From [Candidatus Thermochlorobacteriaceae] bacterium GBChlB (lineage in GTDB: Bacteria; Bacteroidota; Chlorobiia; Chlorobiales; Thermochlorobacteraceae): a DNA stretch of 64,000 nucleotides. The DNA lies in the NCBI GenBank assembly GCA_000724175.1, contig JPGV01000029.1, positions 11,379 to 75,378 of the forward strand, in the 5' to 3' direction. Both the position numbers and the translations under genes were made by a program. Below the pieces are notes generated by a model. That model saw only the letters and a program-made list of their open reading frames with translations, was not told the DNA's origin and made no database searches. Shown here one piece after another: positions 25,854-46,682 of the stretch (its first letter is position 1; every line of letters begins with the position of its first letter).

Positions 25854-25857
25854 TGTA

Positions 25858-26946: not shown

Positions 26947-26948
26947 CG

Positions 26949-28157: not shown

Positions 28158-28184
28158 AGATGAAAAAGTAATGGTTGAAGATGG

Positions 28185-29729: not shown

Positions 29730-29759
29730 ACGGAAATAGTTTAAGAGTGAGTAAAAACA

Positions 29760-29835
29760 GTCATTGCGAGGAGCGTAGCGACGAAGCAATCTCCAACGCT
29801 TCTTTTGGGGATTGCTTCGCTACGCTCGCAATGAC
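29760..29835. repeat. palindromic intergenic repeat element ('..RYAPRND../..EATKQS..' type)
   Basis: Left arm GTCATTGCGAGGAGCGTAGCGACGAAGCAATC (29760-29791). Right arm GATTGCTTCGCTACGCTCGCAATGAC (29810-29835). The arms are reverse complements apart from two 3-nt bulges in the left arm, with an 18-nt loop. Lies between the GH28 stop and the uxaB start. Confidence 0.8.
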
Positions 29836-29866
29836 AATACATTATCATTCTCACTCGATTTTGGTA

Positions 29867-33968: not shown

Positions 33969-35277
33969 CTACAAGTTGCATTTTGGGAATGATGAGATGA
34001 AAGAGCAAGAGCGCGACGAGATACGCCGAGCCGGCAATGATGAAAATCGGCACATAACTGCCTGTCGCATCGAGAATGTACCCGACCAATTTTGCAATGA
34101 ACATTCCGCCGACCGCGCCCGCCATTCCGCCAATGCCGACGACCGAGCCGACCGCTTGTTTCGGAAACATATCCGAGACGGTCGTAAATAAATTCGCTGA
34201 CCAGCCTTGATGCGCCGCCGCCGCAAGCGAAATCAATCCGACCGCGACCCACAAGCTCGATGCTTGCGCCGCGAAGAACATCGGCACAACGCACAGCGCG
34301 CAAACCAGCATCGCAGTTTTGCGACTAAAATTGACCGTTTGTCCATTTGCCATTAACATCGATGAAATCCAGCCGCCGCCGATGCTGCCGATGCTTGCGG
34401 CGAGATAAACGGCAACGAGCGGTAATCCCATCGCCTTCAAATCCAAGCCATGTTGTTTGCTTAAAAAATCGGGAAGCCAAAAGAGATACACCCACCAAAT
34501 TGGGTCGGTGAGAAACTTTGCGAGAGAAAACGCCCAAGTCTCTTTGTGTGGAAAAAGCAACGCCCATTTGACGCTTTGAGAAGCACCATCGGCATCGCTT
34601 TGAATGTAAGCAAGTTCCGAAGGCGAACAGCGTGCGTGCGCTTCGGGCTTTTGATACATCAGCCACCACGCCACCAGCCAAACAAACCCCAACGCGCCTG
34701 TGATGATAAACGCCCACTCCCAGCCCATTGAGGAGACAATTAGCGGAACGAGAATCGGTGTGGAAAGAGCGGCGATATTCGTGCCTGAATTGAAAATCCC
34801 GGTTGCCAGCGCACGCTCTTTTTTTGGAAACCACTCCGCAACAGTTTTTATTGAAGCCGGAAAATTTGCCGCCTCGCCAAAGCCTAAGACGAATCGCGCG
34901 ATGCTGAATCCCACAACGCTACGCGCAAATGCGTGACCAATCGCAGCAACGCTCCAAACCACCACCGCAAGCGCGAAAGCAAGCCGAGTTCCAAGTTTAT
35001 CAATAACCGCGCCGACGCTGACCAGACCAAGCGCGTAAGCGACTTGAAACGCAAAGACAATGTTGCTGTAATCAATTTCGCTCCACCCCAATTCGGTTTG
35101 AAGCAAGGGTTTGAGAATGCCGATAATTTGTCGGTCGACATAGTTGATGGTGGTTGCGAAAAAGAGCAAGCCGCAAATTGTCCATCGATAGTTGCTGCGC
35201 AAGTTGTCTTGTCGGTCTATGAGCGGCTCTTGCGCTGCCGCGTCGTCTCTGAATTTTGTCTCTGTCATTGCCGCCAT
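33958..35277 (-). CDS. exuT: MFS hexuronate transporter (ACS family, ExuT-like)
   Basis: 439 aa. INYVDRQIIGILKP, AEWFPKKERALATGIFNSGTNI, WEWAFIITGALGFVW..WW.MYQKP. Colinear with the E. coli ExuT pattern as recalled. Confidence 0.8.
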   Translation of the reverse strand: MAAMTETKFRDDAAAQEPLIDRQDNLRSNYRWTICGLLFFATTINYVDRQIIGILKPLLQTELGWSEIDYSNIVFAFQVAYALGLVSVGAVIDKLGTRLAFALAVVVWSVAAIGHAFARSVVGFSIARFVLGFGEAANFPASIKTVAEWFPKKERALATGIFNSGTNIAALSTPILVPLIVSSMGWEWAFIITGALGFVWLVAWWLMYQKPEAHARCSPSELAYIQSDADGASQSVKWALLFPHKETWAFSLAKFLTDPIWWVYLFWLPDFLSKQHGLDLKAMGLPLVAVYLAASIGSIGGGWISSMLMANGQTVNFSRKTAMLVCALCVVPMFFAAQASSLWVAVGLISLAAAAHQGWSANLFTTVSDMFPKQAVGSVVGIGGMAGAVGGMFIAKLVGYILDATGSYVPIFIIAGSAYLVALLLFHLIIPKMQLVDVE

Positions 35278-35321
35278 ACGTCGAGTGTAGTTTAGTATTG
35301 TGAAATCAGTGTTATAGAATT

Positions 35322-37010
35322 TTATGCTCTGCCGAGTTGCGCCGTCAAGAGCGCCAGCCCGATAATCCCAATCACGGCAAGCGTTCCCAAAGCGAACCCC
35401 TGCACATCGACGCGATAACGTTTCAGACTGAAGGTTTTGCTTAGCGACAACAAATCGACCAAGAGCAATCCGTGACCGTTGTCTTCGAGCGATTCTGTTT
35501 TGACCGCATTCGTCGCCGCAACCGAATCGCCCGCCAGCATCACTGCAATGCCTGCTTCTTTGAGTTTGTATTCTTCGCCGACGGGCGTGTGCAAGAGCGT
35601 GTAAAAATCGTTGAGTTTTTTTTCGGATTCAGGTTTTGTCAAGAGACTTGCCGCAATGAGCGAGAGAAACCCAAGCGGCAGGTAAAGCGCAGCTTGATAC
35701 TCTAACGACCACTCCATCGCGCCGGTGATGAACGATGCGCTCGCGGTTACAATCACCGACACCCACGCGCCGACCGCGTTGGCGCGTCGCCAAATCACGC
35801 CCATCCAAAATGCAATGCCCAAGAATGCCATAATTTTCCAAACGAGTTTCAAGCCCTCGACCACCGACGGAATGAGCAAGGCGACCGTTACGCCGAGCGC
35901 GACAATGCCGACCGAACTCAGGCGCGCCACACGGAGCGACTCCGATTCGGATAACTCTTGGTTGAAAAATTTTTGATAGAAATTTCGCGTGAAGAGCGCG
36001 GAGCCGGCAATCATATACGCATCGCACGCTGAGACGACCGCCGCGACCATTGCGGCAATCATTAGCCCGGTAAAACCAACGGGCAAGAGCCGTTGCACCG
36101 CCGCGCCGAAGGCTTGTTCTCGATTCGGAAGCTCCGAAAAAATCGCCGCAAGCAAGACGCCCGTGAACGCCCAACCCAGCGTTGCAAAGCGTTTGATGAA
36201 CGTGCCGAACGTCCAGCCGCTTCGACAACTTTCTTCGGTTTTGCCCGCGCCGTTGATTGCCATGTGGTGCGGATAGACGACAATTCCAACCAGCCCGTTG
36301 ATGACGGACATCACGATAAAGAACAGCGTTACTTCGTTTGGCGCAACGAGGCTGAACATTTCGTCAGGCAATTTTTCGCGCACTGCCGCCAAGCCGCCCG
36401 CCGCCGACAGCGCAAAGGGAATGAGCAAAAATGACAACACGAGAATCAATAGCCCTTGAACAAGTTTTGTGCCTGCCGACGCCGCCAAGCCGCCGACCAA
36501 ACTATACGATAAAAAAAATGCCACCATCAGCGCGACCGTTGCTTCTGTCGTGATTGCGCCGTTGGTGATTGCCGAAATCGTAACGCCCGTGCCTTTGAGG
36601 ATAATCCCGATTTCAACCGCGAAGTAACACAGTCCCGCAACCGCGTATGCCGCCGACATTGAGACGCTGTAACGCTGCTCGAAAAAATCGCCGATGGTGA
36701 TGTATCGAAGGCGTCGATAAATCGGCGCGATAATCCAAAAAAACGGCGTGGCGAAAATGTAGAGCCATTGATACCAAATGCCCGCAAGCCCGACTTGATA
36801 CGACGCGCCGACGACCGCCACCACTTGGTCGGTTCGCGTTCCCGCGCCGAAGGCTTGCGCAACCATCATTATTTTTCCAAAACTGCGTCCGCCCATAAAG
36901 TAATCGCCGCTCGATTTCACCGCGCTCTTCGCTCTTAGCCCGACATAAATCGTGATGCCGAAATACGCCGCAATGATGACAACATCGATTGGATTCAATC
37001 CGAACATCAT
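35322..37010 (-). CDS. sodium:solute symporter family (SSF) transporter
   Basis: 562 aa with about 13-14 hydrophobic helices. DYFMGGRSFG near the N-terminus is typical of SSF. Substrate unknown. Confidence 0.8.
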   Translation of the reverse strand: MMFGLNPIDVVIIAAYFGITIYVGLRAKSAVKSSGDYFMGGRSFGKIMMVAQAFGAGTRTDQVVAVVGASYQVGLAGIWYQWLYIFATPFFWIIAPIYRRLRYITIGDFFEQRYSVSMSAAYAVAGLCYFAVEIGIILKGTGVTISAITNGAITTEATVALMVAFFLSYSLVGGLAASAGTKLVQGLLILVLSFLLIPFALSAAGGLAAVREKLPDEMFSLVAPNEVTLFFIVMSVINGLVGIVVYPHHMAINGAGKTEESCRSGWTFGTFIKRFATLGWAFTGVLLAAIFSELPNREQAFGAAVQRLLPVGFTGLMIAAMVAAVVSACDAYMIAGSALFTRNFYQKFFNQELSESESLRVARLSSVGIVALGVTVALLIPSVVEGLKLVWKIMAFLGIAFWMGVIWRRANAVGAWVSVIVTASASFITGAMEWSLEYQAALYLPLGFLSLIAASLLTKPESEKKLNDFYTLLHTPVGEEYKLKEAGIAVMLAGDSVAATNAVKTESLEDNGHGLLLVDLLSLSKTFSLKRYRVDVQGFALGTLAVIGIIGLALLTAQLGRA

Positions 37011-39727
37011 TCAATGCCGCCTTTCTCATCTGACTTTTTCAGTTTCATTGCTCGATGCGGCGGCTCGCCGATGATGTAGTCGATTTTTAATTGGTCGGTT
37101 GCTGAATCGCCGCGCTTCGTTCCCTTTGCCGTAAAGACGTGTTCGCCTTCGCTCCACTGCACATTCCAAACAAACGTCGCTTTTTGCACGCCGAGCGATT
37201 TGCCGTTGTGAAAGAGTTCAAGGCTGTCGCAATTTGTAAATACCCGTAGAGGCTTGATTTCATTGGGCTTTCCAAAGAGTCGCGTTCTCGTGTGCGAGAC
37301 GATATACGCCATCGGCTTTTGCGACCACTTGCTCTGGTATAAATAGTAAGCATCTTTTGGAACGCGCTTGTAATCGACCAGCCCTTTTTCGTTGATGCGC
37401 GGAATGTTGCCTTGCTTGGCGTGCGAGGCAAAGTCTGCGCCGTTCCAGACCGCGCCGCCCGCAATCCACTCGCGCTCGCCAAGTTGTTTCAAATATCCTT
37501 CGTGAAATTTCACTTGATAGGTTTCGCTGAAATCCATTCGCTGCGGGTCATCGACGTGAAAGCCGCGTTTGCCGTCCGCGCCGTATTCGCTGATAAGAAT
37601 TTTCCAATGCGGGTGCAAACGATGTTCTTCGTCCATAATTTTTCCGAAGTCTTCAATCATGCGTTGATACCAGCCGGAATATCGATTACGCCCAACCACG
37701 TCGGTCAGGTTCATCACCGATGTATCAGCGAGCGTATTTTGTGCTTGAATCGTGAGCCGCGTCGGGTCTTCCGATTTAGCGAGCGCGTGCAATTCGCCGA
37801 TGAGTTTCAGACAGAGCTTCAAATCCTCGTCGGTCAGCCAAGGCTCAATGGTTTCATTGGCGACGCCCCAGAAAACAATCGACGGATGGTTTCGGTCTCG
37901 CCGAATCAACTCGCGGAGCATTGTTTTCGTGTTTTCAAAAAACTGTTCGCGCCCAACGGAATTGACATAAGGGATTTCGGTATAAACGATAATGCCGAGC
38001 CTGTCGCATTCGTCGAGCATTGATTCATCGTGCGGATAATGCGCAAGCCGAACAAAGTTTATTCCCATTGCTTTGAAGAGCCGCAGGTCTTGAACGCGCA
38101 CGGAGTCAGGGACAGCATTGCCGTAGCCGAATCGGTCTTGATGCAAATTCACGCCGCAGAGTTGCAGTCGCTTGCCGTTGAGAAAAAATCCTTTATCGGC
38201 GGTAAACTCGAACCAGCGAAATCCGATGTTTGTCGTTATCTCGTCAAGCGCGGGCGCGCGGTTGCCCGATTCCATCTCGGCTGTGTCATAAATGCGCGAC
38301 ACAACTTGATACAGCGCGGGCGATTCGGGCGACCAGAGCGCGGGATATGCTATCTCGGCAACACTCTGCGTAAATAAATGCGTTTGGAATTTCTCGACGG
38401 TCGCCGTTGTCGTCATTGTCGCAACGATGTATCCCTCGGGCGAAATAAGGTTTGTTGCGAGCGTGAGCGTTTTCGTTTCGCCGTCGTTTCGAACTTGCGT
38501 AACGGCGTTGAGCGAGGCGGCGGATTTCGAGACGGCGGGCGTGGTTATCGTAACGGACTCGATGTGCGTGTTGTTAGTGATGTGCAATGAGGCTTCGCGG
38601 GTCAAGCCGCCGGGCATATTGAAGTCGCCGACGTGCGGCGGAATATCGGGCGAATAGGCGTTGTTTACTTTTACGGCAATCACATTGGGTTTGCCGAACA
38701 TAAGTTTATCTGTTAGGTTAAATTTAAAATTCAGAAATCCGCCAATGTGCTTTCCAAGCGGTTTTCCGTTGAGCCAAACTTCCGCCGTTTGGTTTGCGGC
38801 TTCAAATTCAATCCAAAGTTTTTTTCCATTGGCGTCGTCGGGCGGCGTGAAAGTTTTTCTATACCAAGCGTCGCCGCGATAGTAATTGGCGTAGATGTCG
38901 AGTCCGTCGTTGAGATTGCGGTCGTCGTATTGGTCGGTTGCGTTCCACGTGTGCGGCAGGGCAACGCGCTCCCATTTTGAATCGTTGAACCCGACGCTTT
39001 CGGCGTTCTTCGGATTGCCCGTTGTGAATTTCCACTCTTGCGTAAAGTCGATTCGTCGTCGGGCGGGTTTGGTTGGAAAAGCGAGCGGTTGCCACTCGTT
39101 CATTTTTTCGCCGTGCGAAATTTTGAGCAGTCGCGCGTCGCCTGCGCCAAGCGAATAGACGAGCCGCCGCGCCGCGCCGAAAACAGATTTATCGATGAGA
39201 ATCTCGACGCGCTTTTTTTCGGTCGTTGCAATGAACAAAATGACTTCCTCGTCTTTGCCTTCGCCGTTTTCAAATGCGATGTGAAAAGCATTCGATTGCA
39301 CAAGGGCGGTGATGTCTTTTCGTGCTTTCACGCGCCGAAGGCTGCTGCGGATGTCGCCTTTGAAGTTGGCATAGACATAGCCGTCCATCACAAACGCGCT
39401 GAATGCGCCTTTTGGGTGCGGAATATTTTTCGCGGCAATCCATCGCCAGTCGGATTTCAGCGCAGGCTTCAAAATGAATTTTTCGCCCAAGTCTTCGATG
39501 CCGAAGTAGGGAATCGTTTTGATGTCTTTGCCCAGCAGCACTTGGTTTTCTTTGGCATCAGGCGTAAAAAATTGCGTTTGGGGAAATCCAACAACGGGCA
39601 AAAACAGAAACACTGATGCCGCCCACAGAACGGCAAGGCAGTCCAAAACAGCCTGTAAAATCAATGGTTTTCGGCTGACCGTCTTTTCTGTGGTTGATGC
39701 GCGGCTCATATTTTTTTTCTTGCTCAT
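37007..39727 (-). CDS. glycoside hydrolase family 2 enzyme with N-terminal membrane anchor and ~230-aa extra N-terminal domain
   Basis: 906 aa. The GH2 sugar-binding region (WERVALPHTWNA...YYRGDAWYRKTF...LWIEFEAANQTAEVWLNG), the TIM barrel NFVRLAHYPH, acid/base VFWGVANE and nucleophile region LISEYGADG. Confidence 0.85.
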   Translation of the reverse strand: MSKKKNMSRASTTEKTVSRKPLILQAVLDCLAVLWAASVFLFLPVVGFPQTQFFTPDAKENQVLLGKDIKTIPYFGIEDLGEKFILKPALKSDWRWIAAKNIPHPKGAFSAFVMDGYVYANFKGDIRSSLRRVKARKDITALVQSNAFHIAFENGEGKDEEVILFIATTEKKRVEILIDKSVFGAARRLVYSLGAGDARLLKISHGEKMNEWQPLAFPTKPARRRIDFTQEWKFTTGNPKNAESVGFNDSKWERVALPHTWNATDQYDDRNLNDGLDIYANYYRGDAWYRKTFTPPDDANGKKLWIEFEAANQTAEVWLNGKPLGKHIGGFLNFKFNLTDKLMFGKPNVIAVKVNNAYSPDIPPHVGDFNMPGGLTREASLHITNNTHIESVTITTPAVSKSAASLNAVTQVRNDGETKTLTLATNLISPEGYIVATMTTTATVEKFQTHLFTQSVAEIAYPALWSPESPALYQVVSRIYDTAEMESGNRAPALDEITTNIGFRWFEFTADKGFFLNGKRLQLCGVNLHQDRFGYGNAVPDSVRVQDLRLFKAMGINFVRLAHYPHDESMLDECDRLGIIVYTEIPYVNSVGREQFFENTKTMLRELIRRDRNHPSIVFWGVANETIEPWLTDEDLKLCLKLIGELHALAKSEDPTRLTIQAQNTLADTSVMNLTDVVGRNRYSGWYQRMIEDFGKIMDEEHRLHPHWKILISEYGADGKRGFHVDDPQRMDFSETYQVKFHEGYLKQLGEREWIAGGAVWNGADFASHAKQGNIPRINEKGLVDYKRVPKDAYYLYQSKWSQKPMAYIVSHTRTRLFGKPNEIKPLRVFTNCDSLELFHNGKSLGVQKATFVWNVQWSEGEHVFTAKGTKRGDSATDQLKIDYIIGEPPHRAMKLKKSDEKGGIE

Positions 39728-40941
39728 AAAATTTCAACTTTTTCAAAATCCGATGGGCGATACTCGATTCCTAAGCCGACGCCTGTTGGCAGTTCCACCT
39801 TCCCATTTTTGATTTCGCCGAGCGGCTTAGACGAGCTGTTCAAATTGTATTCTTGAAACGCGCCGATGTTCGGAACAACAGAGATAAAATGTCTGAATGG
39901 ATATGCGCCGACGCCGAACTTTGGGGAGTGGCAGTCAATCGTCATGCCCGCTTCCGCCGCCATTTTTGCCACGCGCAATGTTCTGACAAACCCACCATTG
40001 TAGAACAAATCGGGCTGCACTACATCGACGATTTTATGTTTTATCATCGCCTTGAACTGCCATAAACTTGTGTCCTGCTCGCCGCCTGCAATCGGCATAT
40101 CCAGCGCGTCGGCGACGGCTTTCGTGCTGTCGTAATCCTGCCACGGACACGGCTCTTCCCAAATTTTCACGCCGTTGTCTTGCAACAGTTTTCCCATCTC
40201 AATCGCCGTTGGCACATCGTAAGAGCTGTTCGCATCGGCGTAAATTGTAACACTGTCGCCGAGTTTTTTGCGGGCAAGTTTTATCAGCGCCTCGCTTCGA
40301 TTTTCGATTTTCGCTGATTCCGCTTTCATTCGTCCGCCCACTTTAATTTTCACAGCGCGGCAACCGGTTTCCGCAAAATCTCGCTCGATAATTTCCAATT
40401 CTTTTTCGGGCGTTGTGTCGCGCGTCAGCCGCGTCAAATAAACTGAGACATCGTTCCGAATTCTCTTTCCCAACAACTCATACACCGGCTTGTTCGCCGC
40501 CCTCGACATCATATCGAACAGCGCGATTTCAAGATTGCCCACAGAGTTCCAAAACGGCATTCCTGCAAATTTGTAATTCGAGCCTTCGGTATAGACGCCA
40601 TCAACAAGCGTTTCAACATCTCGCGCATCTTTGCCGATGAAAAACGGCACGACGAGTTCTTTGAACAGCGAGATGACCTGCGGCACTCGATTGTTGGCTT
40701 CGATAATGCCGACTGCGCCGTTCTTTGCCGTTACGCGAATGAACAGGTCTTTTTCGCGACGCAGGATTTCGGCTTTTTGTATGATGAGCGGAACAGTAAC
40801 GGCTTTGTGCAAGTCCAGCATCGGCGCAAACGTGAGCGTCGCACTTTGCATCGCTGTTGCAAGCGTTTCGCCCGCCGAAACCAACGGCGTCGTCAATGCG
40901 CCTGCGCCAAGCAGTCGGAGAAACTCGCGTCGATTCATCAT
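39724..40941 (-). CDS. enolase-superfamily enzyme (MR-subgroup-like motif pattern) with twin-arginine signal peptide
   Basis: 405 aa. Tat motif MMNRREFLRLLGAGALTTPLVSAG. KxK in AVKIKVGG. Candidate ligands IYADANSSY / IWEEPC / IAGGEQD, then VVQPD and IDCHSP. Confidence 0.8.
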   Translation of the reverse strand: MMNRREFLRLLGAGALTTPLVSAGETLATAMQSATLTFAPMLDLHKAVTVPLIIQKAEILRREKDLFIRVTAKNGAVGIIEANNRVPQVISLFKELVVPFFIGKDARDVETLVDGVYTEGSNYKFAGMPFWNSVGNLEIALFDMMSRAANKPVYELLGKRIRNDVSVYLTRLTRDTTPEKELEIIERDFAETGCRAVKIKVGGRMKAESAKIENRSEALIKLARKKLGDSVTIYADANSSYDVPTAIEMGKLLQDNGVKIWEEPCPWQDYDSTKAVADALDMPIAGGEQDTSLWQFKAMIKHKIVDVVQPDLFYNGGFVRTLRVAKMAAEAGMTIDCHSPKFGVGAYPFRHFISVVPNIGAFQEYNLNSSSKPLGEIKNGKVELPTGVGLGIEYRPSDFEKVEIL

Positions 40942-41985
40942 CTAACTTTTAGAAAATGTCTTTAAGTGCCGCTGGTAAATTTCCATGAGCTTATCAGGGC
41001 TTTGCGTATTTCGCGGATAAAAGTAATACGCCAAGTGGTCGGGCTGCTTGGCAATGACTTTCGGCAAGCCTCTGTCAATCGCGGCAAGGTCGGCGTCGGC
41101 GACAGAATGATTTTGCGTCGAGAACATCAACTTCGCGTTTGCTTTTCGCGCGTAGCCGCTGATTTTTTCCGCCACGTCCAACAGTCCGACTTCTTTTTCA
41201 TCTAATTTCAACGCCTGTATTTCTTCGTTGCCGAAGGGCTTGCCGTCGCAGCCAAAATAATCCAGTCCTTCAATCGCGCTTGCCGCTTGCCACTCGTCGT
41301 CTGTTGAAGCTGCGTCAGTTGTGAGCGTAATGACCGCGTCTTTTTTCTGCTGTTTGATAAACTCATTGAGCGACGAGACGAACGCTGCAAACGCCTTGAC
41401 GTGGGCTTCTTTCGGGGCGCTTTTGCCTAATTTTTCAACTGCTGTCGGCGAGAAGTCTTGACGAAATCCCTTGGGTTCGTGCCAAATGATTCCATCGATT
41501 CCAATGTCAAGTATCTTTTTTAAACTGCTTTTGAAAAACTCTGTCGTTTCAGGATGATGAATGCTGCTCATCATCATTCCCGATTGCAGGAGCGGCGACC
41601 CATCTTGTTTTAAAATCCATGTGTGCGGGCGTTGTGCCGTAAATGAACTCGGCACGCGCATTGAGCCTGAAAACAGCCCTGCCCACCGTGAGGGCATTGC
41701 AAACACGTGCAACCCCAGCGTCTGCGCTTCTCTGATGATGAAGGCAAGATTTTTTTCTTCATGTGTAAAATCCTGTTCGAGAATCGAGAGCGTGATAGCC
41801 ATCGTGCCGCACGCTTTCATTACAGCGACGTCGTCGCGGATGTGTTTCGGCACAAACGTTCCCATTCCGGCGCGGAAGTAGTAGGCGTTGAGCAATCGCG
41901 CCGATGTGGCGCGCGCGCGGCTTGTCCGTGCGACAGATAGACCCAGCGCAGCCAGAGAGGTTACGATAAAGTCTCTTCGATTCAT
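40942..41985 (-). CDS. twin-arginine-signal protein of unknown function (possibly TIM-barrel glycoside-hydrolase-like)
   Basis: Start moved to MNRRDFIVTSLAALGLSVARTSRARA (ATG at 41985). 347 aa. An alternating beta/alpha-looking pattern with GIIWHEPKG. Its stop abuts the next gene's ATG. No family recognised. Confidence 0.5.
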   Translation of the reverse strand: MNRRDFIVTSLAALGLSVARTSRARATSARLLNAYYFRAGMGTFVPKHIRDDVAVMKACGTMAITLSILEQDFTHEEKNLAFIIREAQTLGLHVFAMPSRWAGLFSGSMRVPSSFTAQRPHTWILKQDGSPLLQSGMMMSSIHHPETTEFFKSSLKKILDIGIDGIIWHEPKGFRQDFSPTAVEKLGKSAPKEAHVKAFAAFVSSLNEFIKQQKKDAVITLTTDAASTDDEWQAASAIEGLDYFGCDGKPFGNEEIQALKLDEKEVGLLDVAEKISGYARKANAKLMFSTQNHSVADADLAAIDRGLPKVIAKQPDHLAYYFYPRNTQSPDKLMEIYQRHLKTFSKS

Positions 41986-42216
41986 TGAAGCCGACGCTGC
42001 TAAGATTGATGAAATTGATTTATTGACGCGCGCCTTGTTGTAAATAAGGGGTTCGCCCGCCCGCATTCCTTGACGGACGAGCGAACTCCAAACAACTATG
42101 ACAACGAGAACCAAAGAACAGCTCGCCGACGCCGACTCTAATGGAGCAAACCAGTCAGTCGCTCGGCAAGAAATGGGCTTAGAACGTTTTCTCGACTCTT
42201 CGCCACAAGGCTCGCC

Positions 42217-43530
42217 TTACTTGACAAGCATCATTTTTCTTGTCTCTGTGAATGTTCCGGCTTGCAATCGATAGAAATATATTCCGCTCGATAGGCCTGC
42301 TGCATTGAACGTGGCTTGATAACGCCCGGCGGCTTGCCTTGTATTTACAAGCGTCGACAGCTCCCGTCCCAGCATATCATACACGACCAACTTGACATCG
42401 ACAGACGTTGGCAATTGATAACTGATGACCGTCGAAGGGTTGAACGGGTTTGGATAGTTTTGGTCGAGCGCAAATTCGGTTGGCCTTGCAGCTGTTTCGA
42501 TGCGCGTGCTGAGTGGCGCAGCCGGCGTCAGGACGATGCCTGAATCGCAGGCAATCACGCCGTTGGTTCCGGCAATCGAGACCGCGCTGAATTCCGCAAT
42601 TGTGGGCAATCCCGTAACGCGCGTCCAAGTCGTGCCGCCGTTGGTGGTCGTCCATAATGCGCCGGGCAAGGAGCCGAGACCGCCGCCCGTCATGTAGCCC
42701 GTGTTGCGCGAAACAAATTGCATATCGGTCATTCGCGTCGTGTCGCCCGCGCCGATGCTTTGTTTCACCCAATTTGCGCCAGCGTTAGTCGAGAAGAATA
42801 CATTGCCCGAATCGCCCGCTACCCAAATGGTGTTTGCATCTGCCATCCACACGGCGCGGAAAGCGCGCGACGGGCTTGGCGTGCGAATGCGCGTCCAAGT
42901 CAAGCCTGCATCATCAGAACGCATCACCACACCGGAGTCGCCGACAACCATCGCCGTCGTTGCATTGAGCGCGAATACTTTACGCATATCGCTGCGCGTG
43001 ATGCCTTGCCGAATGGGCGTCCATGTTCTGCCTGTATCCGTTGTGCGAATAATTTGCCCGCCTCTGCCTGCTGCAATTGCAATTGCAGGCGTTAAGAAGC
43101 GCACCGAGTTGACTGCCGGATTGCCCGCAAATGTTTGCGTCCATGTCCGTCCGCCGTTGAGTGTAAAGAGCAGGTAATTGTTTGCCGCCGTGCCGCCGCC
43201 GCCAACGACAATCCCTCGATTGGTATCCGTCGGGCAGAAGCGAATGTCGCGCAGGGTAATCGGCGAGGAGCGATCTTTATCGAAGCGTTCCCCTGTCCAA
43301 TTCAGTCCGCCGTTGAAACTGCGGTAGATGAGCGTGCGCACACCGACGACCCACATATTATTTGCATCGCGCGCAAATGCGCCTTCCATTTCAACAGACG
43401 CTGTAGGGTCTCGAACAATCGAGACGCCGCCATCGACGAGTCCGTTGGTTCGCAACACCCAAGACTGTTGAGCATATACGGTTCCGCAAATGAGCAGCAG
43501 TGCCATTGCGAGTGATAATCTTCTTGTCAT
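42217..43530 (-). CDS. BNR-like/Ycf48-like beta-propeller repeat protein with T9SS C-terminal sorting domain
   Basis: 437 aa with a signal peptide. Repeated G(G/R/L).(T/N)W(T/V) units (GGLNWT, GGRTWT, TGRTWT, AGLTWT, AGANWV, GGTTWT). C-terminus [22 protein letters not shown]...VYDMLGRE...IYFYRL...RKMMLVK. Confidence 0.75.
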
Positions 43531-43584
43531 AGAAAGACATTGTTTTGATGTTGAAAAAAGTAACGTGTTAAAAAATGTGCTGGA

Positions 43585-46560
43585 TTAAAACGAAATGCCG
43601 ACGCCGACATTGCCCCACACGCCATAGAAGCGTTCATAGAGAATGCGGCTTGGATCGCCTAAGTAGCTTGTCTCCGGCTGGTTCGTGAGGTTTGTAACCT
43701 CCAAGAAAAATTTGTAGTTGAGTGCAAACGGCGGTCGGTAGCTTGCCGTGAAATCCATTCGTCCAAACGGCGCAAACCATGTGTCCCGATTGAAAATGCT
43801 GGGATTAAACGGCACGCGAGGATTACCACGCTCTGAATTGATGTTGACCGATAAAATGTTGCGGTCCTGAAAATTGTAAGAGAGCCGTCCCGAAAAGCCG
43901 CCGCCTTCGTAGCCCAACGCCACGTTCAGGACATTGTTGGTCTGCCCCGGCAATTGAATCCGTCGCTCCGATTGCTGCACTTCGCGCACGCGGTCGGTTA
44001 CTCTGCCGTCCAATTCACGGATGATGAGAAACTGCGGCACAACGGTCTCGGTATTGAGAAACGAGTAGTTCGCATAGAGTCGCAGGTTTTTGAGGAAGCC
44101 CGGCAGAAAATCGAGCGGCAGTTGAATGTCGACTTCTACTCCCCAAATGCGGGAGAACGACGCATTCGTAGGGGTGCGAATAATGAACGGCACTTCGTCG
44201 CCGTCTTCATTGAAGCGCAGTTCAATGGTGCTGACCTGATAGATGTAATTGTCTATGCGTTTATGAAAGGCGCCGAAGGATAAGATGCCAATGTTGCCTA
44301 AGTATTGCGAGAACATTGCATCGAAGTTCCACGAGAGCGTCGGTTGAAGGTTCGGGTTGCCGCGTCGAATCGTCGATTCACCGAACAGCACTTCTTCGTA
44401 AGGCACGACATCGTAGTAGTTCGGTCGTGAAAGCGTGCGTGTGACGGCAAGCCGCAACTCGGTTTGCGGTTGAAATCGGTAGCGCAGATGGAACATCGGA
44501 AACAGTGCGCCGTAGTTGGTTTGCACCGTTGAATCAACCCGTGAGCCAAAGCGTTGCGAATTGACCTGCGAGATAATGCCATACACGCCCTGTGCGTCGA
44601 CCGCCGTAAATTCGTAGCGCAACCCGCCCAATACCATCAGGTTGTCGCCGATGTTAAATTCGCCCATCATGTAGCCGCCGCCGACGTTTTCGCGGGCGAC
44701 ATAGTTCAGCACATCACGAACCTCAATCGTATTGTAGAGCGAGCGCGGCACTTGGTTCAAAAAGAAATCGTTTACCCGCGATAAGTTGAAACTGCGGTCT
44801 AAAAAGAATCGCCCATTGAGAAAATCGCTGTCAGCAAATGAGCTGTCAATGAATGTTGAAAAGCGCACGTTCTCCGTCGGACCGACCAAACCAAACGCCC
44901 TTGCGAGGCTGTCGGTGCGAGGCGCACTTAGGCTAATTTCATTGACGAAACTATCGCGCACTTTGGTGCGGAACATACCGCCGAACTTGATGTAGCCAGT
45001 TGCGTTGTTTGAGAGCGTGAGTGGCAGTTTGAAATTAGCGCGTCCTGCAAAATCGCGGTCGGCTGAATTGAATGTTTGAAACACATTACCCGATAGCACG
45101 GGAAACGTGTAAAGAAATCCGTTTGCGCCGCTGCCTCTGGCTGAGCCGAAGCGCGTGGTGTCGTAGGCGAATTGTTGCACATCAGCGATGCCGATATTGC
45201 CTGCCGTTCTGATTTGCGGTGCAAGCGCGTTGCTGAGTTGAAACGCCACCGACGTGCTGGTCGGCTGGTCGGACCCGCTTCGTGAAAATGAGAACTGATA
45301 GTCAAGTTCAGGCGCGCCAAAGATGTGCTTTCCGCTCACCGATAAATTGATGAGGTCGGTTGTGATGCGCCGGTCTCTGATGTCGCGGTTCAGGGCGCGT
45401 GATGAATTGCCAGCAACGGCTGTAAAATATCGCGTCCGTCGTTCAATCGCGTCGCGGTTAGTGCTACCATAGTTGCCGCGAAACACGAGTTCGGAGCCGC
45501 CGCCCAAATCAACATCAATCGCGCCTGAGAGGCCTAAGCGACTGCGATACTCAACGCGATCGGCGATGCGCAGGTCGTTGAGCGGCAGCGAATCGACGGT
45601 TTGAATATACCCTGCGTCGTAAGATTCCGCGCTGCGGTTCGCCCGTTGATAGCTTGCCGTAAAAACTGCACCCAATTTGCCGTCCAAAAACCGATTACTG
45701 CCAAACGCATTGAACTGATACATCGTCGGGTCTCTGTCCAAAAAGTGGTAGCCCCAGCGACCGTTGGCGTTGAACTGCAAACCCTCTTTGGCATTGCGTG
45801 TAATAAAATTTACAGTGCCGCCAATGGCGTCTGCGTCTTGGTCGGGCGTGAGCGCCTTGAAGACCTCAATCGTCTTAATCATATCGGGCGGAATGAAACT
45901 CAGCGACGCCGAACGTCCGACATCTTGCAGTCGATTACCGTCAACGCCGCCTGCTGTTCCCGGAATGCGCTCGCCGTTGATGGTTGCCGAACTTAGGTTC
46001 GGGTCTAAGCCTCGAATGATGAGTTTTTGCCCTTCGCCGCCGTCGCGCCGCAGTGCCACGCCCGGAATACGCGCCACGGCTTCCGCCGCATTTTGGTCGG
46101 GAAATTCACCGATGCGCTCCGCATCAACGATGTTGACAATTTTGTTCGAAGCTGCTTGATTGTTCAACGCTCTTGACTGCCCTTGCAGTTGTCCCATCAC
46201 AACGATTTCCTCCGTCGTTACGGCTACCACGTCGAGTGCCACATTCAGCTCCACCGTTTGTCCGTCGACAATTGTAACGGTTCGCGTTTCGCTTTTGTAG
46301 CCGATGTAAGCAAAGGTCGCTGTGTAAGTTCCTGCTGGCACGCCTGCCAGTCGATAGCGTCCGCGCAGGTCTGTTACTGCACCATATGACGTGTTTTGGA
46401 GTCGAACTGTTGCACCAATGAGTGGGTCTTTTGTTAACCCTTCGCTGACGACGCCGCTAAGGACACCGGCTTGCTGCGCGAGCGCAACTTTGGGCAACAC
46501 CGTCACCAACATCAGTCCGAGGATGCAAACCCAAGAGCTCGATTGAAATACAGAACGCAT
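43585..46560 (-). CDS. TonB-dependent receptor with N-terminal carboxypeptidase-regulatory-like domain
   Basis: Start moved to MRSVFQSSSWVCILGLMLVTVLPKVALAQQ (ATG at 46560). A CarboxypepD_reg-like region (GATVRLQNTSYGAVTDLRGRYRLAGVPAGTY), a plug (DAERIGEFPDQNAAEAVARIPGV, LIIRGL) and a long barrel ending ..VGVGISF. Confidence 0.9.
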   Translation of the reverse strand: MRSVFQSSSWVCILGLMLVTVLPKVALAQQAGVLSGVVSEGLTKDPLIGATVRLQNTSYGAVTDLRGRYRLAGVPAGTYTATFAYIGYKSETRTVTIVDGQTVELNVALDVVAVTTEEIVVMGQLQGQSRALNNQAASNKIVNIVDAERIGEFPDQNAAEAVARIPGVALRRDGGEGQKLIIRGLDPNLSSATINGERIPGTAGGVDGNRLQDVGRSASLSFIPPDMIKTIEVFKALTPDQDADAIGGTVNFITRNAKEGLQFNANGRWGYHFLDRDPTMYQFNAFGSNRFLDGKLGAVFTASYQRANRSAESYDAGYIQTVDSLPLNDLRIADRVEYRSRLGLSGAIDVDLGGGSELVFRGNYGSTNRDAIERRTRYFTAVAGNSSRALNRDIRDRRITTDLINLSVSGKHIFGAPELDYQFSFSRSGSDQPTSTSVAFQLSNALAPQIRTAGNIGIADVQQFAYDTTRFGSARGSGANGFLYTFPVLSGNVFQTFNSADRDFAGRANFKLPLTLSNNATGYIKFGGMFRTKVRDSFVNEISLSAPRTDSLARAFGLVGPTENVRFSTFIDSSFADSDFLNGRFFLDRSFNLSRVNDFFLNQVPRSLYNTIEVRDVLNYVARENVGGGYMMGEFNIGDNLMVLGGLRYEFTAVDAQGVYGIISQVNSQRFGSRVDSTVQTNYGALFPMFHLRYRFQPQTELRLAVTRTLSRPNYYDVVPYEEVLFGESTIRRGNPNLQPTLSWNFDAMFSQYLGNIGILSFGAFHKRIDNYIYQVSTIELRFNEDGDEVPFIIRTPTNASFSRIWGVEVDIQLPLDFLPGFLKNLRLYANYSFLNTETVVPQFLIIRELDGRVTDRVREVQQSERRIQLPGQTNNVLNVALGYEGGGFSGRLSYNFQDRNILSVNINSERGNPRVPFNPSIFNRDTWFAPFGRMDFTASYRPPFALNYKFFLEVTNLTNQPETSYLGDPSRILYERFYGVWGNVGVGISF

Positions 46561-46682
46561 AGTTTTCTTGGAAAAAGTTGAACAAGTTTTGTTGATACGT
46601 CTTTGTTGCCTTGTCTTCTCCGCGCTGCTTCCCATGCCAACGCGGTAACGTTGTTTTTACTTACGAGACGATTTGGACGACG

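What the first reader, a model, noticed from the sequence alone, without database searches (positions are those of the whole stretch)
39724..40941. Tat-signal enolase-superfamily enzyme #2 carries an MR-subgroup-like KxK + Asp/His pattern (acid-sugar dehydratase-like)
The mature protein shows AVK198IK200VGG (KxK), IYAD236ANSSY, IWE262EPC, IAGGE288QD, VVQPD311 and IDCH338SP. That is the order expected for mandelate-racemase-subgroup members, most of which are acid-sugar dehydratases. It is translationally abutted to the unknown Tat protein upstream (stop at 40942, ATG at 40941) and overlaps GH2 downstream by 4 nt, which suggests co-expression. A periplasmic acid-sugar dehydratase would be unusual.
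Basis: inference. Interest (0 to 1): 0.55.

Follow-up and report, generated by a model that had tools for sequence, protein, structure and literature searches.

The report
Periplasmic enolase-family enzyme linked to glucuronate
This gene encodes a complete mandelate-racemase-type enzyme that carries an export signal for the periplasm, belongs to a large family nobody has characterised, and is repeatedly found beside or fused to enzymes that process glucuronic acid in plant-type glycans, which points to an undescribed step in sugar-acid breakdown outside the cytoplasm.

Summary
ORF 39724-40941 (-) encodes a 405-aa enolase-superfamily protein with the full mandelate-racemase (MR) subgroup set: K198-x-K200, D236, E262, E288, D311 and H338. 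These residues are invariant in its family. They align with the catalytic residues of E. coli DgoD, RhmD and GudD, and they sit at strand ends of a confident AlphaFold barrel. A twin-arginine N-terminus (NRREFLR) is present in 84 of 89 full-length relatives from diderm phyla and absent from the shorter Chloroflexota and Paenibacillus forms. No curated equivalog model is reached, and the nearest structures (3U4F group, 31% identity) have no assigned function. The gene abuts an unknown Tat protein with a glycosidase-like TIM-barrel fold. It overlaps by 4 nt an exported GH2 that has the N-x-K motif of beta-glucuronidases, inside a 28-kb hexuronate utilisation locus. The same gene triad recurs in the closest relative. 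Elsewhere the family is fused to, or sits next to, CE15 glucuronoyl esterases, with a GH145/PL42-like gene following the fusion. My best reading is a periplasmic Mg-dependent enzyme that deprotonates C5 of a glucuronate-type substrate and eliminates the O-4 substituent. "Acid-sugar dehydratase-like" is therefore partly supported, but the substrate and the reaction remain inferred.

The parts
39724..40941 (-). CDS of the enolase-superfamily (MR subgroup) protein, 405 aa; GenBank KER09563.1, annotated 'hypothetical protein HY22_10675', from [Ca. Thermochlorobacteriaceae] bacterium GBChlB
   Evidence: AlphaFold2 model pLDDT 89.4; Foldseek TM-score 0.8-0.89 to 3U4F/3TCS/3T8Q/3T9P
40873..40941 (-). 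Predicted twin-arginine signal peptide, residues 1-23: MMNRREFLRLLGAGALTTPLVSA|GE. The RR codons are at 40927-40932.
   Evidence: Pfam TAT_signal 17.0 bits, below cut-off. RRx[hydrophobic] occurs in 84/89 long homologues, 0/31 short ones, and 2/120 in a control window. 55/72 genomic homologues have it; the exceptions are mostly Chloroflexota, Paenibacillus or genes cut by contig ends.
40342..40350 (-). K198-I-K200 at the end of barrel strand 2. In the MR subgroup, K200 is the candidate general base or acid.
   Evidence: Invariant in A1. Strand 196-200 in the model. K200 is shared only with GudD (KLK) among the characterised enzymes aligned.
40078..40236 (-). Segment spanning the three predicted Mg2+ ligands: D236 (40234-40236, in a D-A-N238 motif), E262 (40156-40158) and E288 (40078-40080), at the ends of strands 3, 4 and 5
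   Evidence: Invariant in the family. D236 and E262 are invariant across DgoD, RhmD, GudD and ManD; E288 is kept in all but GudD, which has Asn in the aligned column. Strands 232-236, 258-262 and 284-286.
39928..40011 (-). Segment spanning the His-Asp dyad: D311 (40009-40011) and H338 (39928-39930), the second candidate general base or acid
   Evidence: Invariant. H338 is invariant in all 14 sequences of A4, and D311 aligns with the QPD of DgoD and RhmD.
39850..39852 (-). E364 after strand 8, invariant in the family. I infer it to be the counterpart of MR Glu317, which stabilises the enolate.
   Evidence: strand 363-366. The equivalence to MR E317 rests on my own knowledge and was not tested.
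40942..41985 (-). Upstream gene, 347 aa, with an RR N-terminus (MNRRDFI). It is a member of a small family with no Pfam model and a (beta/alpha)8 glycosidase-like fold. Its stop codon abuts the start of the enolase gene.
   Evidence: The copy in this window has E291Q and D169H at positions otherwise invariant in the family.
37007..39727 (-). Downstream exported GH2, 906 aa, with an N-terminal membrane anchor or signal, a family-specific N-terminal domain of about 200 aa, and the N-x-K-G motif of beta-glucuronidases. It overlaps the enolase stop by 4 nt.
   Evidence: The 59%-identical orthologue overlaps the enolase orthologue in the same way on L088.
35322..37010 (-). Sodium:solute symporter gene, overlapping the GH2 stop by 4 nt. 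It is the last gene of the tightly coupled four-gene run.
   Evidence: Orthologues (55-57% identity) lie beside enolase homologues in L055 and L084.
42051..42086 (-). Terminator-like hairpin (14 bp stem, 9 G-C pairs) in the 231-nt gap upstream of the unknown Tat gene. It is a possible transcript boundary or attenuator ahead of the four-gene run.
   Evidence: This is a consensus scan only, and the number of sites in the region does not exceed the shuffled expectation.
31450..32676 (-). Second Tat-signal enolase-superfamily gene ('enzyme #1'). It is 23% identical to this one, has K-A-R instead of K-x-K, and overlaps a GH28 gene by 4 nt.
   Evidence: Its orthologues lie directly beside orthologues of this gene in L073, L077 and L070.
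21252..49868 (-). The surrounding co-directional hexuronate utilisation locus. In gene order: regulator, cytoplasmic beta-glucuronidase, TonB-dependent receptor, BNR/T9SS protein, the four-gene run, MFS transporter, Tat ARH-like protein, enolase #1, GH28, UxaB, ManD, glycerate kinase, UxaA-like, UxaC, Eda, KdgK.

Best explanation
The gene encodes a catalytically complete, Mg2+-dependent MR-subgroup enolase-superfamily enzyme. It is folded in the cytoplasm and exported to the periplasm by the Tat pathway. There it works with an exported GUS-like GH2, with which it is translationally coupled, on a glucuronate-type uronic acid derived from imported glycan fragments. Proposed chemistry: the substrate carboxylate binds the Mg2+ held by D236, E262 and E288. 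K200 or the H338-D311 dyad removes the proton on the carbon next to the carboxylate (C5 of the uronate). The resulting enediolate collapses by expelling the oxygen substituent on the neighbouring carbon (O-4: hydroxyl, methoxyl or a glycosyl group). The product is a 4,5-unsaturated or 4-deoxy-5-keto uronate. This is the same carbon-for-carbon step that the locus's cytoplasmic ManD performs on mannonate. Shown: fold, catalytic residues, family-wide RR signal, gene coupling, and repeated association with glucuronate-processing enzymes. Inferred: actual export, the substrate, and elimination rather than epimerisation. My rough probabilities: active MR-type enzyme 0.9; periplasmic 0.8; uronate or glucuronate-related substrate 0.6; beta-elimination as the reaction 0.45.
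For: Superfamily and subgroup: Pfam; invariant K198/K200/D236/N238/E262/E263/E288/D311/H338/E364; alignment with E. coli DgoD, RhmD and GudD; these residues lie at strand ends of a pLDDT-89 model; Foldseek. Export; signal-less forms occur only in Chloroflexota and Paenibacillus (apart from two Cytophagales members with a single Arg and a few genes with cut or uncertain starts), the pattern expected for an enzyme that acts where oligosaccharides are processed. Coupling: the gene abuts the unknown Tat gene and overlaps the GH2; the same three genes are adjacent on L088, at 50%, 65% and 59% identity, with the GH2 gene overlapping the enolase stop by 4 nt there too. Link to glucuronate: (i) the GH2 aligns its N-E-K-G with the N-L-K-G of the window's beta-glucuronidase, which passes the NCBIfam equivalog cut-off (595.7 against 544). 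(ii) Hexuronate catabolic genes sit in the same cluster here and near homologues in L055, L059, L065, L073 and L084. (iii) Four 90%-identity clusters (P0173, P0313, P0314 and the truncated P0170), seen on at least 15 contigs, are fusions of Tat signal + this family's domain + a CE15 glucuronoyl esterase. All catalytic residues are kept, and the esterase domain has GHSRSGK, which fits the CE15 G-C-S-R-x-G motif as I recall it. (iv) A CE15 gene lies two genes upstream of a homologue in L008, and a weaker CE15-like gene is nearby in L002. (v) The gene just after the P0313 and P0314 fusions is related to GH145/PL42 enzymes that cut Rha-alpha1,4-GlcA. An esterase that frees the uronate carboxylate, fused to an enzyme that needs a free carboxylate, makes mechanistic sense.
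Against: There is no biochemical evidence for any member of the family. Hexuronate genes occur within 10 kb in only about 8 of about 82 related loci, and no neighbour is universal. The commonest operonic partner, a xylose-isomerase-like TIM barrel, is present in only 9 of 118 neighbouring genes. No KduI/KduD, GH88, GH105 or polysaccharide lyase was seen among the window's ORFs of 150 aa or more, so the fate of a 4,5-unsaturated or 5-keto-4-deoxy product is not accounted for locally. The locus already has a full cytoplasmic route for free glucuronate and galacturonate. All characterised MR-subgroup dehydratases known to me act on open-chain aldonates or aldarates, not uronates. The catalytic set equally fits an epimerase. 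The Tat HMM score is below threshold.
Confidence: 0.45

Rival explanations
1. It is a classical acid-sugar dehydratase, relocated to the periplasm, that acts on an open-chain aldonate or aldarate (for example galactarate, glucarate, mannonate, altronate or gluconate) and produces a 2-keto-3-deoxy acid that is then imported.
For: The best curated-model hits are all such dehydratases (AraD 126 bits, TalrD/GalrD 112, GalD 112, gluconate/galactonate dehydratase 106). D-x-N plus KxK plus His-Asp is the configuration of GudD and, from established knowledge, of TalrD/GalrD and FucD. The locus has an acid-sugar MFS transporter, KdgK, Eda and a glycerate kinase.
Against: All scores are 3- to 7-fold below the family cut-offs. 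No periplasmic oxidase or dehydrogenase that would make aldonates or aldarates is present in the locus. The cytoplasm already holds ManD and a UxaA-like dehydratase. The CE15 fusions and the GUS-like or GH145/PL42-like partners point to glucuronate carrying substituents, not to aldarates.
Confidence: 0.2
2. It is a 1,1-proton-transfer enzyme: a C5 epimerase of uronic acids or uronides (GlcA/IdoA, ManA/GulA, GalA/AltA) or a C2 epimerase of an acid sugar. It would convert a residue into the form that the coupled GH2 or the cytoplasmic UxaC pathway can use.
For: Both opposite-face catalysts, K200 and H338-D311, are invariant, as in mandelate racemase. The paralogue enzyme #1 has K-A-R, and the two types lie adjacent in 5 loci, with a more distant second Tat enolase adjacent in 3 more. 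That arrangement would fit an epimerase followed by a dehydratase. Epimerising an alpha-L-iduronide gives a beta-D-glucuronide, the type of substrate expected for the overlapping GH2 (inference).
Against: Many true dehydratases (GudD, and FucD and TalrD by established knowledge) keep both catalysts too. Nothing in the contexts specifically indicates iduronate or guluronate glycans. There is no direct evidence.
Confidence: 0.15
3. The substrate is not a sugar acid at all. It could be an N-acyl amino acid, a dipeptide, muconate, or another carboxylate found in the periplasm, and the glycan context is only a genomic neighbourhood effect.
For: The enolase superfamily is functionally diverse. Neighbourhoods across the family are heterogeneous. 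The cytoplasmic Chloroflexota forms sit beside an unknown 278-aa protein, a dual-specificity phosphatase, an O-methyltransferase and a PhyH dioxygenase.
Against: The residue set is MR-subgroup, not MLE-subgroup: scores against MLE, OSBS and dipeptide-epimerase models are lower. Translational coupling to a GH2 is conserved across 65%-identical orthologues. CE15 fusions are maintained in several lineages.
Confidence: 0.1
4. The protein is cytoplasmic. The RR-containing N-terminus is not a working Tat signal, or the true start codon lies further downstream.
For: The Pfam TAT_signal score is only 17.0 bits against a 22.7 cut-off. Signal-less family members of about 370 aa exist.
Against: The RR motif followed by a hydrophobic stretch is present in 84 of 89 long homologues against 2 of 120 in a control window. 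It tracks cell-envelope type. There is no in-frame ATG between residue 2 and residue 31, and the gene call on the sister contig uses the same start. Three other proteins of the locus carry RR signals.
Confidence: 0.05

Closest known systems
PDB 3U4F, 3TCS, 3T8Q, 3T9P (structural-genomics 'mandelate racemase/muconate lactonizing enzyme family' proteins from Roseovarius, Roseobacter and Hoeflea)
   Same: These are the closest solved relatives: phmmer E 1e-53 to 4e-56, about 31% identity, TM-score 0.8-0.89. They share the D-A-N, EEPCP, GGEQD, VQPD and His motifs.
   Different: None has an assigned function. They have K-V-R where this family has K-x-K. The alignments start at chain residue 9-33, so the deposited chains carry no comparable N-terminal extension. 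They form a separate family.
E. coli D-glucarate dehydratase GudD, and L-talarate/galactarate dehydratase (MR/GlucD-type acid-sugar dehydratases with KxK plus His-Asp)
   Same: The same catalytic layout: K-x-K after strand 2, D-x-N, and the His-Asp dyad (for GudD). The chemistry is Mg-assisted abstraction of the alpha proton followed by beta-elimination of hydroxide, with epimerisation as a side reaction (established knowledge).
   Different: About 23% identity. NCBIfam scores are 34 bits (cut-off 829) for glucarate dehydratase and 112 bits (cut-off 500) for TalrD/GalrD. Those enzymes are cytoplasmic and act on open-chain dicarboxylates.
D-mannonate dehydratase ManD (enolase superfamily; a bona fide copy is in this window at 26949-28157)
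   Same: The same superfamily and the same locus. ManD removes H-2 and OH-3 of mannonate, which correspond to C5 and C4 of the glucuronate it derives from. The proposed reaction is therefore the uronate-level counterpart of the ManD step (inference).
   Different: 24% identity. ManD lacks KxK (it has R-A-Q) and uses D-x-H. It has no signal peptide. It passes its equivalog cut-off (717 against 550), whereas the protein studied here scores 98.
Mandelate racemase (the founding member of the subgroup)
   Same: The same residue pattern as I recall it for MR: K164-x-K166, D195-x-N197, E221-E222, E247, D270, H297, E317. PDB MR chains match at E about 1e-14.
   Different: The sequence relationship is distant. 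MR is a cytoplasmic racemase of an aromatic alpha-hydroxy acid. The residue-by-residue equivalence to MR was not aligned here.
3,6-anhydro-D/L-galactonate cycloisomerases (5OLC, 5XD7) and D-galactarolactone cycloisomerase (4GGB)
   Same: These are enolase-superfamily enzymes from glycan catabolism that eliminate an ether or ester oxygen rather than hydroxide from the beta carbon. They set a precedent for expelling an O-substituent (established knowledge). They match at E 6e-23 to 1e-17.
   Different: They are cytoplasmic, only distantly related, and act on C1-carboxylate sugars. 5OLC is the best hit of enzyme #1, not of this protein.
Polysaccharide lyases acting on glucuronate, e.g. PL42 L-Rha-alpha1,4-GlcA lyase (7ESK)
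   Same: They carry out the same formal reaction proposed here: abstraction of H-5 next to the uronate carboxylate and elimination of the O-4 substituent. A GH145/PL42-like gene follows the enolase-CE15 fusions.
   Different: The fold (beta-propeller) and catalytic apparatus are unrelated. The resemblance is mechanistic only and is unproven for this protein.

Membership tests
Enolase superfamily | Two-domain architecture: an N-terminal alpha+beta capping domain and a C-terminal modified (beta/alpha)7-beta barrel | tested here: met
   MR_MLE_N 26.3 bits (cut-off 22) and MR_MLE_C 158.4 bits (cut-off 29.4). AlphaFold2 model pLDDT 89.4, pTM 0.86. Foldseek probability 1.0 and TM-score 0.8-0.89 to enolase-superfamily structures.
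Enolase superfamily | Three carboxylate ligands for the essential divalent metal at the C-terminal ends of barrel strands 3, 4 and 5 | tested here: met
   D236, E262 and E288 are invariant in the family. They align with the corresponding columns of DgoD, RhmD, ManD and GudD (GudD has Asn at the third). They lie at the ends of predicted strands 232-236, 258-262 and 284-286. Metal binding itself was not tested.
Mandelate racemase (MR) subgroup | K-x-K motif at the end of strand 2 | tested here: met
   K198-I-K200 ends strand 196-200. Both Lys are invariant in 33 family members.
Mandelate racemase (MR) subgroup | His at the end of strand 7, hydrogen-bonded to Asp at the end of strand 6 (His-Asp dyad) | tested here: met
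   H338 is invariant across all 14 sequences, including the characterised dehydratases. D311 sits in the conserved QPD motif.
Specific characterised acid-sugar dehydratase families (AraD, TalrD/GalrD, GalD, gluconate/galactonate dehydratase, ManD, RhamD, GlucD) | A score at or above the curated NCBIfam equivalog cut-off | tested here: not met
   Scores against cut-offs: 126/650, 112/500, 112/311, 106/750, 98/550, 93/393, 34/829 bits. The protein is therefore not filed under any of them.
Acid-sugar dehydratase (as an activity) | Mg-dependent dehydration of an acid sugar to a 2-keto-3-deoxy, or equivalent, product | not testable with these tools
   This needs an enzyme assay. Only indirect genomic association with uronate-processing genes is available.
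Tat (twin-arginine) exported proteins | An N-terminal S/T-R-R-x-F-L-K-type motif, a mildly hydrophobic h-region and an A-x-A-type cleavage site | tested here: inconclusive
   NRREFLR, then LLGAGALTTPLV (mean Kyte-Doolittle hydropathy 1.32 over residues 10-24), then VSA|GE. PF10518 scores 17.0 bits, below the 22.7 cut-off, and TIGR01409 was not reported at E <= 0.01. The motif is strongly conserved in the family: 84/89 long homologues against 2/120 in the control, and two homologues (P0106, P0378) carry a precomputed PF10518 hit. Export was not demonstrated, and the presence of tatA/tatC in the genome was not checked.
Polysaccharide lyase / uronate 4,5-eliminase (as an activity) | Formation of a 4,5-unsaturated uronate (A235) from a uronate or uronide | not testable with these tools
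   This is a hypothesis only. It rests on the CE15 fusions, the GH145/PL42-like neighbour and coupling to the GUS-like GH2.

The most novel reading that the evidence does not exclude
This family is an enolase-superfamily class of periplasmic uronate 4,5-eliminases. They would act on glucuronate that is still capped at O-4 or still glycosidically bound, for example by expelling methanol from 4-O-methyl-glucuronate or a sugar from 4-O-substituted glucuronate. That would be a Mg-dependent lyase route with a non-PL fold for the capped glucuronate of xylans, arabinogalactan proteins and gums. In some lineages the enzyme is physically fused to the CE15 esterase that first frees the carboxylate.
Probability: 0.2. 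Interest if true: 0.85.

Novelty: new variant of a known kind. Interest (0 to 1): 0.6.

Why it matters
All enolase-superfamily sugar-acid enzymes characterised so far, to my knowledge and in the library searched here, are cytoplasmic and act on free open-chain acids. This family has hundreds of species-level occurrences across about ten phyla and is Tat-exported in diderm bacteria. It is welded to glycoside hydrolases and, in some lineages, to glucuronoyl esterases. That would place carbanion chemistry of this type in the periplasmic stage of glycan breakdown. If the substrate is capped or esterified glucuronate, the family would explain how bacteria deal with the 4-O-methyl and 4-O-glycosyl glucuronate decorations of xylan, arabinogalactan proteins and gums. 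It would add a tool for biomass deconstruction, and it would give a function to proteins now labelled 'hypothetical' or 'mandelate racemase family'. The hypothesis is cheap to test with one recombinant protein and a handful of uronates.

Tried and rejected
1. I looked for a curated functional assignment. NCBIfam gives 16 enolase-family models, all far below cut-off. The PDB sequence search and Foldseek return only unassigned structural-genomics entries as close hits.

2. Ten full-text literature searches found nothing relevant. The terms covered the enolase superfamily or mandelate racemase combined with twin-arginine, Tat, periplasmic, PUL or signal peptide; the four PDB codes; CE15 or glucuronoyl esterase combined with enolase or mandelate racemase; and 4-O-methyl-glucuronate catabolism.

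3. I looked for a universal genomic partner. All-against-all clustering of 979 ORFs from 84 loci, plus a Pfam census of 118 operonic neighbours, gave no family in more than 9 of 118. The idea of one fixed operon partner is rejected.

4. The unknown upstream Tat protein is not the general partner. Its family has only 29 clusters and sits in other glycan loci without any enolase gene. The pairing is confined to this lineage and L088.

5. The ARH-like Tat protein of the locus has no counterpart in any related locus.

6. I looked for a downstream route for an unsaturated or 5-keto-4-deoxy uronate in the window (KduI/KduD, GH88/GH105, PL). None was seen among ORFs of 150 aa or more.

7. I tested whether hexuronate genes accompany the whole family. 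They appear in only about 8 of about 82 loci, so that link is local. The CE15 fusions gave broader support.

8. The extra regions of the other long fusion-like proteins (P0188, P0195, P0199) have no Pfam match or only a weak M14 hit, and were not pursued.

9. The promoter and terminator scan is uninformative overall, because counts do not exceed the shuffled expectation. Only one strong hairpin is noted.

Full report
OBSERVATION. The minus-strand ORF 39724-40941 starts with ATG and encodes 405 residues. I checked the codons against the DNA. The upstream gene's stop TAG (40944-40942) is followed immediately by the ATG at 40941. ATGA at 39727-39724 gives a 4-nt overlap with the downstream GH2 gene. 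A 98%-identical contig carries the same gene calls. One correction is needed: the upstream gene begins at ATG 41985 (347 aa, MNRRDFI...), not at the TTG the mechanical ORF list reports. The window comes from [Candidatus Thermochlorobacteriaceae] bacterium GBChlB, where the protein is deposited as a hypothetical protein, KER09563.1.

WHAT THE PROTEIN IS. Both Pfam domains of the mandelate racemase / muconate lactonizing enzyme fold pass their cut-offs (MR_MLE_C 158 bits, MR_MLE_N 26 bits).
- In an alignment of 33 family members at 44-65% identity, the invariant residues are K198, K200, D236, N238, E262, E263, E288, D311, H338 and E364. K124, R174, T176, R204 and R215 are invariant as well.
- I then aligned the family with three experimentally characterised E. 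coli enzymes taken from the annotated K-12 genome (DgoD, RhmD, GudD), the window's own bona fide ManD, and enzyme #1. D236, E262 and H338 are invariant in all 14 sequences. E288 is kept in all except GudD, which has Asn in that column; as I recall, that Asn is GudD's own third metal ligand. D311 falls in the shared QPD motif.
- The second Lys of K-x-K is shared only with GudD (K-L-K). DgoD has K-L-N, RhmD K-M-P, ManD R-A-Q and enzyme #1 K-A-R. After the first metal ligand this family has D-x-N, like GudD and enzyme #1, and not the D-x-H of DgoD and ManD.
- An AlphaFold2 model built on the family alignment is confident (pLDDT 89.4, pTM 0.86). It places these residues at the ends of successive barrel strands: 196-200, 232-236, 258-262, 284-286 and 363-366.
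The protein is a complete MR-subgroup enzyme.

WHAT IT IS NOT. No curated equivalog is reached. The best are archaeal arabinonate dehydratase (126 bits, cut-off 650), L-talarate/galactarate dehydratase (112/500), galactonate dehydratase (112/311), gluconate/galactonate dehydratase (106/750) and ManD (98/550). The closest solved structures by sequence and by fold are 3U4F, 3TCS, 3T8Q and 3T9P. They share about 31% identity with TM-score 0.8-0.89. All are structural-genomics entries without an assigned function, and they have K-V-R in place of K-x-K. Ten full-text searches found no paper on an exported member of this superfamily, nor on these PDB entries.

EXPORT SIGNAL. The N-terminus MMNRREFLRLLGAGALTTPLVSA|GE has the twin-arginine consensus, a weakly hydrophobic core and a V-S-A site. 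The Pfam TAT_signal model gives only 17.0 bits, below its 22.7 cut-off. For comparison, enzyme #1 scores 22.8, the ARH-like protein of the locus 18.4, and the upstream protein does not match. The stronger evidence is comparative.
- Among the 120 best homologues, 84 of the 89 that are 389 aa or longer have RR-x-hydrophobic within the first 30 residues. None of the 31 shorter ones do, and a control window inside the proteins gives 2 of 120.
- Among 72 genes in species-representative genomes, 55 have the motif. The exceptions are nine Chloroflexota and one Paenibacillus, which simply lack the N-terminal extension; two Cytophagales members with a single Arg; and a few genes whose start is cut by a contig end or otherwise uncertain.
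So diderm lineages export the protein (Bacteroidota, Planctomycetota, Acidobacteriota, Verrucomicrobiota, Ignavibacteriota, Alphaproteobacteria and Ca. Sumerlaeota), while monoderm-type lineages keep it inside (the one Gemmatimonadota gene, L034, has an uncertain start and shows no motif). This is the pattern typical of enzymes that act at the oligosaccharide-processing stage. Export itself is inferred, not shown.

SIZE OF THE FAMILY. Against 1.84 billion 50%-identity representatives, 178 score E <= 1e-30. A rough tree places the protein in a clade clearly separate from enzyme #1 and ManD.

LOCAL CONTEXT. The gene lies in a co-directional run of about 28 kb (21252-49868). In order, the genes are:
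- a GntR/LacI-type regulator;
- a beta-glucuronidase that passes its equivalog cut-off (595.7 against 544) and has no signal peptide;
- a TonB-dependent receptor;
- a BNR protein with a T9SS tail;
- the unknown Tat protein;
- this enzyme;
- a 906-aa GH2 with an N-terminal anchor;
- a sodium:solute symporter;
- an acid-sugar-type MFS transporter;
- a Tat ADP-ribosylglycohydrolase-family protein;
- enzyme #1 (Tat);
- a secreted GH28;
- tagaturonate reductase, ManD, glycerate kinase, a UxaA-like dehydratase, UxaC, Eda and KdgK.
The unknown gene, this gene, the GH2 and the symporter abut or overlap one another by 4 nt. A strong terminator-like hairpin (42086-42051) lies just upstream of the four. 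The 906-aa GH2 and its orthologues carry N-x-K-G aligned with the N-L-K-G of the bona fide glucuronidase. To my knowledge, this motif recognises the uronate carboxylate in GUS enzymes. These GH2 proteins also share an N-terminal domain of about 200 aa.

The upstream protein belongs to a family of 29 clusters with no Pfam model. Its model (pLDDT 88.9) is a (beta/alpha)8 barrel nearest to Cwp19, GH42, GH14 and GH164. The copy in this window has E291Q and D169H at positions that are otherwise invariant.

CONTEXT IN RELATIVES. The closest non-trivial relative (65% identity, contig L088) has the same three genes in the same order, at 50%, 65% and 59% identity. There too the GH2 gene overlaps the stop of the enolase gene by 4 nt.
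- Saprospiraceae (L059, L060) and Flammeovirgaceae (L073) loci combine a homologue with the same GH2 type, the same receptor type, GH28 and hexuronate genes. In L073 the order is this family, enzyme #1 type, GH2, a GntP permease, then glycerate kinase.
- Hyphomonadaceae loci (L055, L084) have receptor, homologue, GH28 (overlapping in L055), symporter, beta-glucuronidase, KdgK, ManD and UxaC.
- A Cyclobacteriaceae locus (L065) has GH2 followed by the homologue, next to UxuA, UxuB and UxaC.
This covers only about 8 of about 82 loci. A census of 118 operonic neighbours shows no universal partner: xylose-isomerase-like TIM barrel 9, a second enolase-superfamily gene 6, and sulfatases, FAD oxidoreductases and receptors 3 each.

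FUSIONS. The representative search revealed long proteins. P0173 (769 aa) consists of a Tat signal, a domain of this family (47% identical to the query, with all catalytic residues kept) and a CE15 glucuronoyl esterase domain (PF22244, 113 bits). The esterase domain has GHSRSGK, which fits the CE15 G-C-S-R-x-G motif as I recall it. It occurs on two independent assemblies. A search with it found two more full-length fusions, P0313 and P0314, which are 55% identical to it and were seen on at least 15 contigs of up to 232 kb. It also found the truncated P0170. The architecture is therefore real and maintained.

Independently of the fusions, a CE15 gene (108 bits) lies two genes upstream of a homologue, on the same strand, in a Cytophagales genome (L008). 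A weaker CE15-like gene lies 3.3 kb away in L002. The gene that follows the P0313 and P0314 fusions, after about 35 nt, is related to GH145/PL42 enzymes that cut the Rha-alpha1,4-GlcA cap of arabinogalactan proteins (5MUK at 1e-7, 7ESK at 2e-3).

MECHANISM. Shown: the fold, the metal-ligand and acid/base residues, the conserved RR signal, the translational coupling, and the recurring association with enzymes whose substrates are glucuronate residues. These include the GUS-like GH2, a cytoplasmic GUS, CE15, the GH145/PL42-like protein and hexuronate catabolic genes.

Inferred: the enzyme binds the carboxylate of a glucuronate-type uronic acid on its Mg2+. K200 or H338-D311 removes H-5. The enediolate then expels the O-4 substituent. 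Carbon for carbon, this is the step that ManD performs on mannonate, because mannonate C2/C3 correspond to glucuronate C5/C4. It is also formally the reaction of uronate lyases. A fusion to an esterase that liberates the carboxylate fits an enzyme that cannot work without a free carboxylate. I put this reading at about 0.45.

RIVALS.
- A classical aldonate/aldarate dehydratase moved to the periplasm (0.2).
- A C5 or C2 epimerase (0.15). Both opposite-face catalysts are invariant, and enzyme #1, which has only one of them, is often adjacent.
- A non-sugar substrate (0.1).
- No export (0.05).
Against the main reading: the window has no KduI/KduD, GH88/GH105 or lyase to take the product onward. 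The locus already handles free hexuronates in the cytoplasm. No characterised MR-subgroup enzyme known to me uses a uronate.

NOVELTY AND VERDICT. The scaffold and the general chemistry are well known. The compartment, the family and the probable substrate class are not. I therefore rate it a new variant of a known kind. The interpretation 'acid-sugar dehydratase-like' is partly supported: the subgroup and the intact ligands hold up, but the reaction is not established, and the evidence points to glucuronate rather than aldonates or aldarates. The protein is not an oddity of one genome. It represents a widespread exported family. Interest 0.6: moderately surprising to a specialist, and directly testable with one recombinant protein.

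Noticed in passing
P0173 (L092:4284-6593, L093:1980-4289), P0313 (L096:10001-12295), P0314 (L094:10001-12298), P0170: Natural fusions of a Tat signal, a domain of this enolase family, and a CE15 glucuronoyl esterase domain. There are four 90%-identity clusters, 54-55% identical to one another, on at least 15 contigs. I found no mention of them in the searched literature.
   Followed up: partly
L094:12331-13689 and L096:12332-13690: The gene immediately downstream of the enolase-CE15 fusions is a BNR_4 protein related to GH145/PL42 enzymes that act on Rha-alpha1,4-GlcA (5MUK E 1e-7; 7ESK E 2e-3).
   Followed up: partly
window 40942-41985 (-): An unknown Tat-signal protein of 347 aa from a family of only about 29 clusters with no Pfam or NCBIfam model. 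It has a confident (beta/alpha)8 model nearest to Cwp19, GH42, GH14 and GH164, with WDEPK and xENHN motifs that suggest a clan GH-A-like glycosidase. The copy in this window has E291Q, D169H, W251F and N294S at positions that are otherwise (nearly) invariant, so it may be inactive or repurposed. The L088 orthologue keeps D and E.
   Followed up: partly
window 37007-39727 (-); L088:2230-4986; L073:12487-15129; L059:2004-4724; L060:1837-4626: An exported GH2 clade with the N-x-K-G motif of beta-glucuronidases plus a conserved extra N-terminal domain of about 200 aa with no Pfam match. It recurs with the enolase family and a particular TonB-dependent receptor type.
   Followed up: partly
window 32673-33968 (-): A Tat-signal ADP-ribosylglycohydrolase-family protein (PF03747, 104 bits) inside the hexuronate locus. 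It overlaps both the MFS gene and enzyme #1. It has no counterpart in any of the 84 related loci, and its role in a glycan locus is unexplained.
   Followed up: no
window 31450-32676 (-); L073:11166-12419; L077:6736-8031; L070:1143-2372: Enzyme #1 (Tat, K-A-R instead of K-x-K; best PDB hit the 3,6-anhydro-D-galactonate cycloisomerase 5OLC) has orthologues directly adjacent to orthologues of this gene in three other genomes. More distant second Tat enolases are adjacent in L064, L075 and in three Planctomycetota loci. This hints at a two-enzyme sequence.
   Followed up: partly
window 42051-42086 (-): A strong terminator-like hairpin (14-bp stem, 9 G-C pairs, T-rich tail) between the BNR/T9SS gene and the unknown Tat gene. 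It may split the locus into transcripts or act as an attenuator.
   Followed up: no
window 46683-48584 (-): The mechanical ORF for the beta-glucuronidase starts at a TTG. The sister contig aa, and the sequence from the internal Met (MLKPQQ...) has no signal peptide. This bona fide GUS is therefore probably cytoplasmic, which implies that glucuronides are imported intact.
   Followed up: partly
window 25858-26946 (-); L073:15163-17630: A glycerate kinase sits inside the hexuronate operon here. In L073 a GntP-family permease plus a glycerate kinase directly follow the enolase-enolase-GH2 genes. The standard hexuronate pathway gives no source of glycerate.
   Followed up: no
L006:1703-4235, L013:8802-11307, L058:1592-3649 (Anaerolineae): The signal-less cytoplasmic forms are flanked by a conserved 278-aa protein with no Pfam match. 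In L006, L010 and L013 a dual-specificity-phosphatase-like protein lies on the other side. In Caldilineaceae the neighbours include a GPH-type sugar transporter, an Asp/Glu-racemase-like protein, GFO/IDH/MocA, an SDR, an O-methyltransferase and a PhyH dioxygenase.
   Followed up: no
window 43585-46635 and 42217-43530 (-); L059:5397-9971: The TonB-dependent receptor has no SusD partner. It is followed here by a Ycf48-like BNR protein with a T9SS tail, and in Saprospiraceae and Flammeovirgaceae by a different T9SS-tailed protein of about 510 aa (weak DUF4957 match). These may be alternative surface glycan-binding partners.
   Followed up: no
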